From a virus (lineage: Duplodnaviria > Heunggongvirae > Uroviricota > Caudoviricetes): DNA of 48,513 bases. Position numbers: made by a program. How positions within the stretch are numbered: position 1 is the stretch's first letter; every line of letters begins with the position of its first letter. Location: the IMG/VR virus record IMGVR_UViG_2547132252_000025; one strand, given 5' to 3'. This document shows, piece by piece, positions 6,001 to 9,000 of this stretch.

Positions 6001-9000
6001 CAACAGGCCACCCTGCAATGGCATATTGCATGGTGTGCTCCTTATTTATACATAACGAAAAACGCCTCGAGTGAAGCGTTATTGGTATGCGGTAACGCCG
6101 CGCTCAGGCGGCTTTGATAGTCATATCATCTGAATCAAATATTCCTGATGTATCGATATCGGTAATTCTTATTCCTTCGCTACCATCCATTGGAGGCCAT
6201 CCTTCCTGACCATTTCCATCATTCCAGTCGAACTCACACACAACACCATATGCATTTAAGTCGCTTGAAATTGCTATAAGCAGAGCATGTTGCGCCAGCA
6301 TGATTAATACAGCATTTAATAAAGAGCCGTGTTTATTGAGTCGGTATTCAGAGTCTGACCAGAAATTATTAATCTGGTGAAGTTTTTCCTCTGTCATTAC
6401 GTCATGGTCGATTTCAATTTCTATTGATGCTTTCCAGTCGTAATCAATGATGTATTTTTTGATGTTTGACATCTGTTCATATCCTCACAGATAAAAAATC
6501 GCCCTCACATTGGAGGGCAAAGAAGATTTCCAATAATCAGAACAAGTCGGCTCCTGTTTAGTTACGAGCGACATTGCTCCGTGTATTCACTCGTTGGAAT
6601 GAATACACAGTGCTGTGTTTATTCTGTTGTTTATGCCAAAAATAAAGGCCACCATCAGGCAGCCTTGTTGTAAATGTTGCAGGTATCAAGTAAGTAATTA
6701 GATGGAGCGCCATAAATTATGAATTCATCGTTTGTCGGGTCCATCTCCATCTCTTGTCCTATTGCCATTCTTGCGTCAGTGTCGTCAGCGGCGAAGCATA
6801 AAACAGCCCACGCACCCATTGTTTTAAAAAGAACTGCAATTGGCTGTGGTTTTACTGAATTTGCGTTAGCGCGAAAATCACAAATCGCACTTTCATGAAA
6901 TTCCATATATCACCTCAAATAAGTGGTTTGCTGCCTAATTTCATTTTCTGGCGACCAACACAAGTCATCTTGCTGTCAGTTGTTTGGATTTACGGTAGCC
7001 TGCCGCGTAAAGAGCTACATTTGGAAGACAAGTTGAGCCTTCATATTTTCTGGTCAACGTTGTCAGTGTTATTACTTCTGCTCTCATTGCTGGTTTGCGT
7101 TTGCATTGTAAGACCACTCGTGATGGGGTTGGCCTGTGTAGTTTGTCGGAGCTAATCGCCTCCTGACTTTGCAGGTTTGCGCGACGAGCTCTACGGCGAG
7201 AAGCTGCGGTGCCTTTAAATTCTGTTTTTCTGGACATAGATTCCTCCCGAATAAACTTTGGCGATGCAATCTCGAAGCTCCTCCTGAGACGGTTGCTTCG
7301 GCATTGCATCCCACAGCTTATGTGGTTGGGTGATCTGGCTTTTCAGCCACGTAGTCGAGAGTCGACGTTGTTTAAAGAGCCTGCCAGTCTGTTCCATTTG
7401 GCTTCCAGCGTCCTGCTGATGGTTAAATAGTACGATATGTACTTCACTTGGTCAATACAATTTGTTCTAAAACGGGGCGTTTTTTTACAACGCTTTGTAT
7501 TTAATAGTATTGTTTTTTAGCGTGGGTGTATTGCCTCGGCGATGTAAGGAGAGATCAGAATTGCGTTGTTTAGTGAGTTGTATCTATTTATTTTCCAATA
7601 AATACAATTGGTTATGTGTTTTTTTGGGCGAGAGGAAAAGAAAACCCGGCATGGAGGCCGGGTTGATGATTAGCGGTGTGGCCTTGAGCGATAATGCTCA
7701 CACACATGTTCAAGATTTCCATGCCTTATCCGTTCATAGGCATTCACATGAACTTCTCGATCGAATTGGTCATTCAAATTGTATGTAGACATCTGTGTTT
7801 TCTCATATTGGCGGCAGCCCTACAACCGCTTGAAAAAATGTACCAGACGCGCTAAGGTTACATCGCAAATATTGTGTACCTTAACAAGGGCTCCTTTTGG
7901 AGGCTCTGGTTAAACAGCATCAATGTCGGACTGGGGAGTTGGACATTGTGCTGAATGCTTTTGCATTATTGAGGCCGAACGTAAACCTTCAGAATTGAAG
8001 AGATGCGTTCGGCTTCTTCGTTTGTGATATCGTTAGGAATGCCTTTAATCGTTACTGTAACCCCTGATTCAGGTCGAAGAACTACTGGAAGATCATAGGT
8101 ATGAAGTGCATTAGCCTTGCCTTCGACTTTTGTTGGTTCGCCAGTCAAATCTTTTTCCTCACTGGATTCTTTGTCAATCGGAGTGTATGGGATTTCTTCA
8201 CCAGACTGGAAAGCTACAAACTTTTTGATTGCACTTTCCATGCGGCTTTTATATGCAGTAATGCTGCTGTCGCTAGGCTTCGGCTCAGTTGCGTTGATGT
8301 ATCGCTCGGCAAGCTCATTCACATCAAGCTGAGTAACATCACCCATTTCCTCTTCTTGGACTACCGTTAAGAGGCGAGCGGATGAGTTTTTTAAATTTCG
8401 AGCGGTGGCCTCCTTCATTATGTTCAGCGACATAAGCTCTTCAAGGAAGTCCTTGAATGCCTGCACGCTAACGTTTGACTTTGCCATTTGCTCTCTCTCT
8501 AAGTTATTGACTCAGATCGAGTTTATCCAGGAATTGATTTGCATGCAAGACTCAAGTCTTGAGAATTTCCGTTCAAGATCCACTCTCAATAAAAAAGGCC
8601 GCACCTCTGCGACCTTTCATCTCCTAAATCTCTTTTCTCTTACCTAAAGAAACAGCAGGCTGGGTCAGCCCTAACAACTTCAAGTGCATCGGTCAGAGAA
8701 AGCTCCGTGCTATACAGGTGTTATTTCATATCTTTTTGCATCCAATAAATTTTCCATCTGTCCAGAGAGCGGATGCACTTGATTCTTGTTGATGGCAGGA
8801 CGTTTTTTCACCTGCCTCACCCTGCCATACAGGACGCTGCTCACCGATATCTATCGTCCGGTCATTGATGTTATAGACAATATCCAGATCATTACGGATA
8901 TACTCAGATGGCCTTATGCTTTCAATGAATAGATGAACTTCTTTTTGACCGCTTGATACTCATGGCCATTAAACTCCATCTATCCTCTTTACCCAAACGT

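What the first reader, a model, noticed from the sequence alone, without database searches (positions are those of the whole stretch)
6491..6906. Unknown 83-aa gene where lambda has ral
Between ea10 and N, lambda carries ral (restriction alleviation). Here an unrelated 83-aa protein (6655-6906) sits in that slot with its own terminator (6491-6518). Positional analogy suggests an anti-restriction or host-modulating role.
Basis: inference. Interest (0 to 1): 0.4.

Follow-up and report, generated by a model that had tools for sequence, protein, structure and literature searches.

The report
Orphan early gene replacing phage ral
A real, well-conserved 83-residue gene of unknown function sits exactly where phage lambda has its anti-restriction gene ral, but a published screen found no anti-restriction activity for this exact protein, and the terminator credited to it belongs to a known small RNA (PreS).

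Summary
The ORF at 6655-6906 (-) is a genuine gene. It is 100% identical to H0090 of Stx phage VT2-Sakai and to mEp234 gp34, and dN/dS against diverged homologues is 0.07-0.19.

It is a precise cassette swap for lambda orf28+ral. Homology to lambda (~98-99%) runs from ea10 through the 182-nt spacer into the last codons (NKAA-stop), then resumes at the ribosome-binding site and ATG. No record among 50,697 phage records carries both genes (56 with ORF83, 120 with ral, union 176).

The hairpin at 6491-6518 is not this gene's own terminator. It is lambda tL2a, the 3' end of the Hfq-dependent sRNA PreS/LPR1. The gene's own terminator-like hairpin overlaps its stop codon (6645-6666).

The protein is an orphan found only in Enterobacteriaceae. 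It has no hit in Pfam, NCBIfam, PADLOC or PDB, and no convincing fold match.

The exact protein was already tested as 'orf60' in Silas et al.'s 200-gene accessory-gene screen. It is not among the genes with phenotypes. In MG1655 challenged with unmodified lambda, only ocr, ral and ardA scored.

My best reading is an early, stoichiometric binder that neutralises a host or prophage factor other than type IA restriction. This is inferred (confidence 0.4). The finding is ordinary to moderately interesting.

The parts
6655..6906 (-). ORF83 coding sequence: 83 aa, 9.2 kDa, pI 4.2. Orphan accessory gene, identical to VT2-Sakai H0090, mEp234 gp34 (AFM76313.1) and Silas et al. orf60.
6907..6935 (-). 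Conserved 5' linker with ribosome-binding site (GGCAGCAAACCACTTATTTGAGGTGATAT). It is shared with the upstream side of orf184 in mEp213 and, in part, with lambda orf28. This is the left junction of the cassette.
6638..6666 (-). Terminator-like hairpin overlapping the stop codon (AAGGCTGCC-TGAT-GGTGGCCTT followed by TATTTTT). Its 5' arm encodes the C-terminal K-A-A. This is the right junction of the cassette.
6581..6608 (-). Perfect 12-bp hairpin (GUGUAUUCAUUC-CAAC-GAGUGAAUACAC) immediately 5' of the PreS-like sRNA. It may be a processing site.
6493..6580 (-). Homologue of lambda sRNA LPR1/PreS: one mismatch to lambda over the 88-nt block 6491-6578 compared. It ends in the tL2a hairpin (6499-6520) plus T6 (6493-6498). 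This is the 'terminator' of the finding. The 5' end is inferred from the published ~88-nt size.
6965..7237 (-). Antiterminator N (PF25694). Its stop codon lies 58 nt upstream of the ORF83 ATG, with no intrinsic terminator between them.
6104..6472 (-). ea10 (DUF2528), the downstream neighbour, ~99% identical to lambda ea10.

Best explanation
ORF83 is an accessory-gene cassette of the lambdoid pL operon and an allele of the 'ral slot'.

Expression. It is transcribed from pL together with N. No intrinsic terminator separates the two genes, so it should be made at the very start of lytic development. Transcripts that are not antiterminated can end at the hairpin over its stop codon, or 137 nt further on at tL2a, where the PreS sRNA ends.

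The protein. The product is a small, soluble, mildly acidic alpha/beta protein with no catalytic motif. It most likely acts stoichiometrically: it would bind and neutralise a host- or resident-prophage-encoded factor that limits phage growth. That makes it a counter-defence protein whose target is not a type IA (EcoKI-like) restriction system.

What is shown and what is inferred. Shown: gene reality, cassette structure, position, exclusivity with ral, lack of homology, and the identity of the terminator. Inferred: time of expression, binding mode, and counter-defence role.
For: - Purifying selection, dN/dS 0.07-0.19.
- Exact replacement of lambda orf28+ral with conserved junctions. The same 5' linker and the same stop-codon hairpin flank another cassette of this slot, orf184.
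- The gene directly follows N (gaps of 8-58 nt) behind different N families in most contexts examined.
- No terminator-like site lies between N and ORF83.
- Zero co-occurrence with ral: 56 + 120 = 176 records.
- The 'Ral' region is the second highest-scoring accessory region of about 2000 in enterobacteriophages.
- Its known occupants act on host immunity. Ral inhibits type I R-M, and orf184 triggers the gop-beta-cII abortive system.
- The protein has 83 residues, no transmembrane segment and pI 4.2-5.4.
- Two AlphaFold runs give a consistent alpha-beta-beta-alpha-beta-alpha topology.
Against: - The exact protein gave no reported phenotype in the Silas et al. screen. It was neither host-sensitising nor conditionally lethal in about 20 E. 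coli hosts challenged with T2-T7, P1vir and lambda-vir.
- Strong purifying selection and 70% or more identity across genera are not the signature of an arms-race gene. They would fit a conserved housekeeping target equally well.
- No homology or fold match supports any specific activity.
- The best model reaches only pLDDT 69.
- The per-gene fitness values for orf60 were not available to me. 'No phenotype' is read from its absence from the authors' lists.
Confidence: 0.4

Rival explanations
1. Ral analogue. ORF83 alleviates type I restriction, or enhances modification, of unmodified phage DNA. It would be a non-homologous functional replacement of Ral.
For: It occupies exactly the ral slot and never co-occurs with ral. 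The carrier phage phi330 has no anti-R-M function recognised by DefenseFinder's anti-defence search.
Against: In the pooled screen containing this exact protein, only ocr, ral and ardA relieved EcoKI restriction of unmodified lambda in MG1655, in three replicates. orf60 is also not among the hits in ECOR hosts where Ocr, ArdA or Ral scored. There is no similarity to Ral and no cysteine cluster like that of Ral. The charge of -3 to -7 is not conserved and is far from that of DNA mimics. The window also carries a Dam-like methyltransferase.
Confidence: 0.07
2. Host-takeover factor unrelated to immunity. ORF83 binds a conserved housekeeping protein (replication, division, proteolysis or transcription) to tune early phage development, as cIII, Kil or Gam do in the same operon.
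For: Strong purifying selection and high conservation across genera fit a conserved target. The neighbours in the operon are of this kind. The lack of any phenotype in a defence-oriented screen is expected under this reading.
Against: The slot is one of the most variable accessory regions, and its characterised occupants interact with immunity. A housekeeping-targeting function would be expected to be more widespread among lambdoid phages than 56 of 50,697 records.
Confidence: 0.22
3. Inter-phage competition. ORF83 is a superinfection-exclusion or defence gene, filling the role of sieB, which is missing between N and this gene in the window.
For: In lambda the same interval also holds sieB. 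Several accessory regions in this area are labelled 'RalSupEx' by Silas et al..
Against: There is no PADLOC hit and no transmembrane segment. There is no promoter-like site upstream: the only one nearby is inside the ORF, and the count is no higher than in shuffled sequence. The gene should therefore be repressed with pL in a lysogen. The superinfection-exclusion hits noted in the experimental log were UDP79, UDP183, cor (orf86) and UDP0013 (Imm), with 'among others' in several entries, and orf60 is not among the named ones. Salmonella phage S9-5 has both sieB and ORF83.
Confidence: 0.08
4. Not a functional protein. The ORF would be a chance reading frame or a decaying remnant, with the region mattering only as RNA (a precursor of PreS).
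For: No function, domain or confident structure was found.
Against: dN/dS is 0.07-0.19 with saturated synonymous change. A conserved ribosome-binding site and reading frame are kept in five genera. ORF83 homologues also occur without any PreS sequence nearby.
Confidence: 0.02

Closest known systems
Lambda Ral (restriction alleviation protein, Pfam PF11058)
   Same: Same slot in the pL operon between N and ea10. Same ribosome-binding-site/ATG junction (via orf28) and the same last codons (N-K-A-A-stop). Small early protein. Mutually exclusive in phage genomes.
   Different: No sequence or profile similarity. Ral is basic (pI 8.8) with a four-cysteine cluster; ORF83 is acidic and has no such cluster. 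Ral relieved EcoKI restriction in the published screen and orf60 did not. In lambda, sieB lies between N and ral; from general knowledge the terminator tL1 does too. Here the gene follows N directly.
orf184 of Silas et al. (mEp213 gp45, AFM76385.1), trigger of the gop-beta-cII abortive system
   Same: Another non-homologous cassette of the same slot, with the same 5' linker (TTATTTGAGGTGA), the same stop-codon hairpin and a -KAA C-terminus, followed by the PreS module.
   Different: Unrelated sequence (hhalign probability 1.1%). It is much more acidic (charge -17) and widely distributed (Burkholderia, Pseudomonas and Vibrio phages). It has a demonstrated phenotype.
DNA-mimic anti-restriction proteins (T7 Ocr, ArdA)
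   Same: Small, acidic and expressed first after infection.
   Different: No homology. The net charge is only -3 to -7 and is not conserved. The predicted alpha/beta sandwich is not an elongated helical mimic. There was no anti-EcoKI activity in the screen.
Lambda sRNA LPR1/PreS with terminator tL2a (bioRxiv 10.1101/2024.10.31.621285)
   Same: The hairpin at 6491-6518 and the ~88 nt before it show one mismatch to lambda over the 88-nt block compared, and lie in the same place between the ral slot and ea10.
   Different: This concerns the terminator, not the protein. PreS is a separate module and is absent next to the ORF83 homologues of Citrobacter, Klebsiella, Enterobacter and Salmonella phage.

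Membership tests
Ral (PF11058) | Sequence/profile similarity to Ral | tested here: not met
   No Pfam hit at E <= 1. hhalign probability 0.2%. Only the last residues (NKAA) coincide, and these are encoded by the shared junction hairpin.
Ral (PF11058) | Position in the pL operon downstream of N and upstream of ea10/cIII | tested here: met
Ral (PF11058) | Alleviates type IA restriction / enhances modification | not testable with these tools
   Published pooled screen with this exact protein (orf60): only ocr, ral and ardA were hits in MG1655 with unmodified lambda. The result is negative, but only at screening level.
DNA-mimic anti-restriction (Ocr / ArdA) | Large, conserved negative surface charge and homology to the Ocr/ArdA families | tested here: not met
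   Charge is -7.4 in the window protein but only -3.2 to -4.4 in homologues. No Pfam or PDB hits.
PHROG 2471 (unknown function) | Full-length profile match | tested here: met
   E = 1.4e-61, residues 1-83 of 83
Accessory gene of the lambdoid 'Ral' accessory region (Silas et al.) | Variable gene between conserved flanks, alternating with other unrelated genes in related phages | tested here: met
   Junctions shared with lambda and mEp213. No co-occurrence with ral. The exact sequence is listed as UDP0060 among the 200 synthesised accessory genes. Which accessory region the authors drew it from is not stated in the text I could read.
Known anti-phage defence proteins (PADLOC-DB) | Profile match to any defence-system component | tested here: not met
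   0 families at E <= 10
PreS/LPR1 sRNA (applies to 6491-6580, not to the protein) | Sequence identity to lambda LPR1; location between the ral slot and ea10; 3' GC hairpin plus poly-U (tL2a) | tested here: met
   One mismatch over the 88-nt block compared. Hfq binding and dnaN activation are not testable here.
Intrinsic (rho-independent) terminator | GC-rich hairpin followed by a T-run | tested here: met
   Both 6499-6520 + T6 and 6645-6666 + TATTTTT match. Both are annotated as terminators in mEp234. Termination efficiency was not tested.

The most novel reading that the evidence does not exclude
ORF83 founds a new family of phage counter-defence proteins. It would be made as an immediate-early product together with N and would neutralise a defence system that was absent or masked in the published ECOR screen (for example a system typical of O157 or other Enterobacteriaceae hosts). 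The ral slot, bounded by a conserved linker and a 'KAA-stop' hairpin, would then be a plug-in site for interchangeable anti-immunity cassettes.
Probability: 0.33. Interest if true: 0.55.

Novelty: new member of a known kind. Interest (0 to 1): 0.3.

Why it matters
The gene sits in Shiga-toxin phages of E. coli O157:H7 and in about 7% of complete E. coli genomes (403 of 5426). It occupies one of the most variable accessory regions of lambdoid phages, and the characterised alleles of that region act on host immunity. If it proves to be a counter-defence protein, it would add a family with no known relatives. It could also help explain the host range and induction success of Stx phages.

As it stands, this is an already catalogued, already screened hypothetical gene. 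The more solid gain here is a corrected annotation:
- the 'terminator' is the PreS sRNA/tL2a module;
- the cassette boundaries are defined to the base.

Tried and rejected
Searches that gave no functional lead:
- Pfam, NCBIfam and PADLOC scans returned no hits.
- A PDB sequence search with a profile gave a best E of 0.084, which is noise.
- The word-indexed search of 5.8 billion proteins found only close relatives.
- The exhaustive HMM search of 1.84 billion representatives gave 7 hits. Two of them (P0021 and P0022, with 43 and 12 weak repeats) are repeat-protein artefacts that I rejected after reading the sequences.

Structure:
- The first AlphaFold model had pLDDT 58 and the second pLDDT 69 / pTM 0.55.
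- Foldseek against BFVD gave no hit at E <= 0.001.

Other checks:
- Profile comparison with Ral and orf184 was negative.
- Rfam has no family at 6473-6654; PreS is not in Rfam 15.
- The species-representative genome scan gave only 2 loci.
- Literature searches by accession and locus tag found nothing on this protein, and searches by carrier-phage names gave nothing useful.
- A MAFFT alignment of the stop-codon hairpins mis-registered one sequence. I therefore read the pairs directly from the folds rather than running pair counts.
- I considered that the C-terminal KAA shared with Ral might indicate homology and rejected it. It is encoded by the 5' arm of the boundary hairpin and is also present in the unrelated orf184 and Ea10.

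Full report
WHAT IS THERE. The window is a Stx2-converting lambdoid phage; its first 25 kb are 99.8% identical to phage 2851. The early left (pL) operon lies on the minus strand in this order: N (6965-7237), the 83-codon ORF (6655-6906), ea10 (6104-6472), cIII, kil, gam, bet, exo. The ORF starts at an ATG behind GAGGTGATAT and ends in ...YNKAA-TGA. The 601 nt around it are 100% identical in VT2-Sakai (gene H0090), Stx1-converting phage, the PA-series Stx2 phages and others. By tblastn the protein is present in 56 phage records, including the non-Stx phages HK633, HK106, mEp234, Gally and JEP4 and two Salmonella P22-like phages. It is also present in 403 of 5426 complete E. coli genomes.

IT IS A REAL GENE. 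Homologues of 70-83% identity occur in Citrobacter, Klebsiella, Enterobacter and Salmonella-phage DNA. Pairwise Nei-Gojobori estimates give dN/dS of 0.07-0.19, with synonymous sites close to saturation. That indicates strong purifying selection on the protein.

CASSETTE REPLACEMENT OF RAL. The alignment with lambda shows ~98-99% identity from ea10 through the whole 182-nt spacer and into the last codons of the ORF. The window reads N-K-A-A-stop and lambda ral reads N-N-K-A-A-stop. Homology is then lost over the body of the gene. It resumes for about 22 nt at the ribosome-binding site and ATG, which in lambda belong to orf28, the small frame overlapping the start of ral. The spacer between the stop codon and ea10 is 182 nt in both phages. 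ORF83 (252 nt) therefore replaces orf28+ral (271 nt) base for base. The lambda sieB interval between N and ral is absent here: only 58 nt separate N from ORF83.

A third, unrelated occupant of the same slot is orf184 of Silas et al. (mEp213 gp45). It has the same 5' linker (TTATTTGAGGTGA), the same kind of 3' hairpin and a -DKAA C-terminus.

The shared K/Q-A-A end is explained by a GC hairpin whose 5' arm is the last three codons and whose loop holds the stop codon. In the window it reads AAGGCUGCC-UGAU-GGUGGCCUU followed by UAUUUUU. It is kept in every ORF83 variant, with G-C, G-U and C-G exchanges on the paired positions. It is weaker in lambda ral.

EXCLUSIVITY WITH RAL. Ral is found in 120 phage records and ORF83 in 56. 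A search with the two proteins concatenated finds 176 records, each with one place, so no record has both. As a rough yardstick, independence among the ~750 lambdoid records that match the left half of the window would predict about nine co-occurrences. The window itself has no ral.

POSITION IN OTHER GENOMES. In most independent contexts examined, the homologue is the first gene after an N antiterminator. The N proteins belong to different families: PF25694, PF11438, or a weak PF25694 match. The gaps between N and the homologue are 8-58 nt, while the downstream genes differ (ea10, P22 gene 17, kilR, an Sf6 gene 33-like gene). There are two exceptions. In Salmonella phage S9-5, sieB on the other strand intervenes. 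In a Citrobacter prophage, TerB-like and DUF3927 genes precede it. No terminator-like site lies between N and ORF83. I infer from this that ORF83 is co-transcribed with N from pL as one of the first phage products.

THE 'OWN TERMINATOR' IS tL2a/PreS. The hairpin at 6499-6520 with T6 at 6493-6498 is real. However, it lies in the lambda-identical spacer, with a single mismatch in its loop. A 2024 preprint (10.1101/2024.10.31.621285) describes the Hfq-dependent sRNA LPR1/PreS 'between ea10 and ral'. It is about 88 nt long with a 68-nt processed form, its 3' end is the terminator tL2a, and it is expressed in the lytic cycle. It activates dnaN translation to support phage replication. The 88-nt block 6491-6578 shows one mismatch to lambda. 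An RNA of about 88 nt ending at the T-run (about 6493-6580) would begin directly after a perfect 12-bp hairpin at 6581-6608. The 196-nt 3' region folds much better than shuffled sequence (z = -6.0).

PreS is a separate module. It follows ORF83, ral or orf184 in E. coli phages, but it is absent next to the ORF83 homologues of other genera. GenBank annotators of mEp234 marked both hairpins as rho-independent terminators. So the gene does have a terminator-like element of its own, but it is at 6645-6666, not at 6491-6518.

THE PROTEIN. There is no Pfam, NCBIfam or PADLOC hit. PHROG 2471, of unknown function, matches at full length. No solved relative exists. An exhaustive profile search of 1.84 billion representative proteins found only the family itself, plus two repeat-protein artefacts. 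The family is therefore confined to Enterobacteriaceae, with members at least ~60-70% identical.

PUBLISHED EXPERIMENTAL EVIDENCE. Silas et al. (bioRxiv 10.1101/2023.04.06.535777; Nat Commun 2025, PMC12373910) ranked accessory regions of 1706 enterobacteriophages. A 'Ral' region ranks second. They synthesised 200 accessory genes, and Supplementary File 3 lists UDP0060 = AFM76313.1 of mEp234, whose sequence is identical to ORF83. The numbering equals the paper's orf numbers: UDP0087 is ral = orf87 and UDP0086 is cor = orf86.

In the log of the pooled screen, MG1655 challenged with unmodified lambda gave 'ardA, ral, ocr are hits' in all three replicates. The legend of Supplementary File 7 lists 'all AGs that produced phenotypes': orf7, 24, 48, 63, 92, 98, 116, 126, 143, 145, 148 and 184. 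orf60 is not in it. There are two caveats. I could not see per-gene fitness values, and a pooled single-copy expression screen with eight lytic phages cannot exclude other targets.

A 2025 description of EHEC phages notes that phi330, an ORF83 carrier, is the only one of eight phages with no anti-R-M system detected, while Ral is found in two others. The tool used simply does not know this protein. The window does carry a Dam-like methyltransferase at about 14144-14635.

MECHANISM. The following are shown: the gene is real, it is an allele of the ral slot, it lies next to N, it is unrelated to known families, and the terminator is tL2a/PreS. The rest is inferred. A 9-kDa non-enzymatic early protein in an accessory region whose known alleles interact with host immunity most likely works by binding and neutralising a host or prophage factor. 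The published screen argues that this factor is not a type IA restriction enzyme. I put 0.40 on this counter-defence reading. The rivals are:
- 0.22 on an immunity-unrelated host-takeover role; the strong purifying selection fits a conserved target;
- 0.08 on superinfection exclusion;
- 0.07 on Ral-like type I anti-restriction;
- 0.02 on a non-functional ORF.
The remainder is unassigned.

COMPARISON AND NOVELTY. The element works like, and is positioned like, the accessory cassettes ral and orf184, but it is a member of neither family. It is already annotated as hypothetical, already has a PHROG, and has already been chosen and tested as an accessory gene. It is therefore a new, uncharacterised member of a known kind (lambdoid early accessory or counter-defence cassettes), not a new kind of system. 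Interest is modest (0.3). A specialist would not be surprised, but the gene is common in Stx phages and remains a clean, testable candidate.

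Noticed in passing
window 6493-6580 (-), with hairpin 6581-6608 (-): Homologue of the lambda Hfq-dependent sRNA PreS/LPR1: one mismatch to lambda over the 88-nt block 6491-6578 compared. 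It ends at tL2a, is not represented in Rfam 15, and is preceded by a perfect 12-bp hairpin that could mark its 5' processing site.
   Followed up: partly
window 6638-6666 (-), window ~6080-6110 (-), L002, L003, L006, L007, L011: Unrelated pL-operon proteins (Ral, ORF83, orf184 and also Ea10, which ends ...IKAA) all end in K-A-A with the stop codon inside or next to a GC hairpin followed by a T-run. Together with a conserved linker (GGCAGCAAaCCACTTATTTGAGGTGA) this looks like a recurrent cassette-boundary element.
   Followed up: partly
L011 (phage mEp213) 3022-3088 and 1606-1691: mEp213 carries a second, partial copy of the PreS sequence (67 nt, 100% identical) upstream of its first N gene, and two annotated N genes. 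This suggests a duplicated or recombined pL region.
   Followed up: no
L003 4359-4936 (Citrobacter prophage): Here the ORF83 homologue is preceded not by N but by a TerB-like gene and a DUF3927 gene ending in a strong terminator. This is one of two exceptions to the 'first gene after N' rule (the other is Salmonella phage S9-5, where sieB intervenes).
   Followed up: partly
window 7966-8487 (-): A 173-aa ORF (VT2-Sakai H0093, PHROG 2602, unknown function) lies between cI and pL, in the position of lambda rexAB. It is a candidate lysogen-expressed moron.
   Followed up: no
window ~14144-14635 (+): Dam-like N6-adenine methyltransferase with an NPPY motif, 48% identical to the Dam of L003. It is a possible self-modification anti-restriction function of this phage.
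   Followed up: no
window 5986-6044, 14875-15060, 15975-16058, 19639-19879, 21290-21501: Rfam gathering-level hits: the lambda cIII thermoregulator, isrK and C4 antisense RNA, sRNA-Xcc1, three tRNAs, and STnc100.
   Followed up: no
proteins P0021 (3126 aa) and P0022 (1357 aa): Two long tandem-repeat proteins reached E-values of 1e-34 and 1e-13 in the exhaustive profile search by summing dozens of weak repeat matches. They are not relatives. This is a caution for reading that tool's hit lists.
   Followed up: yes
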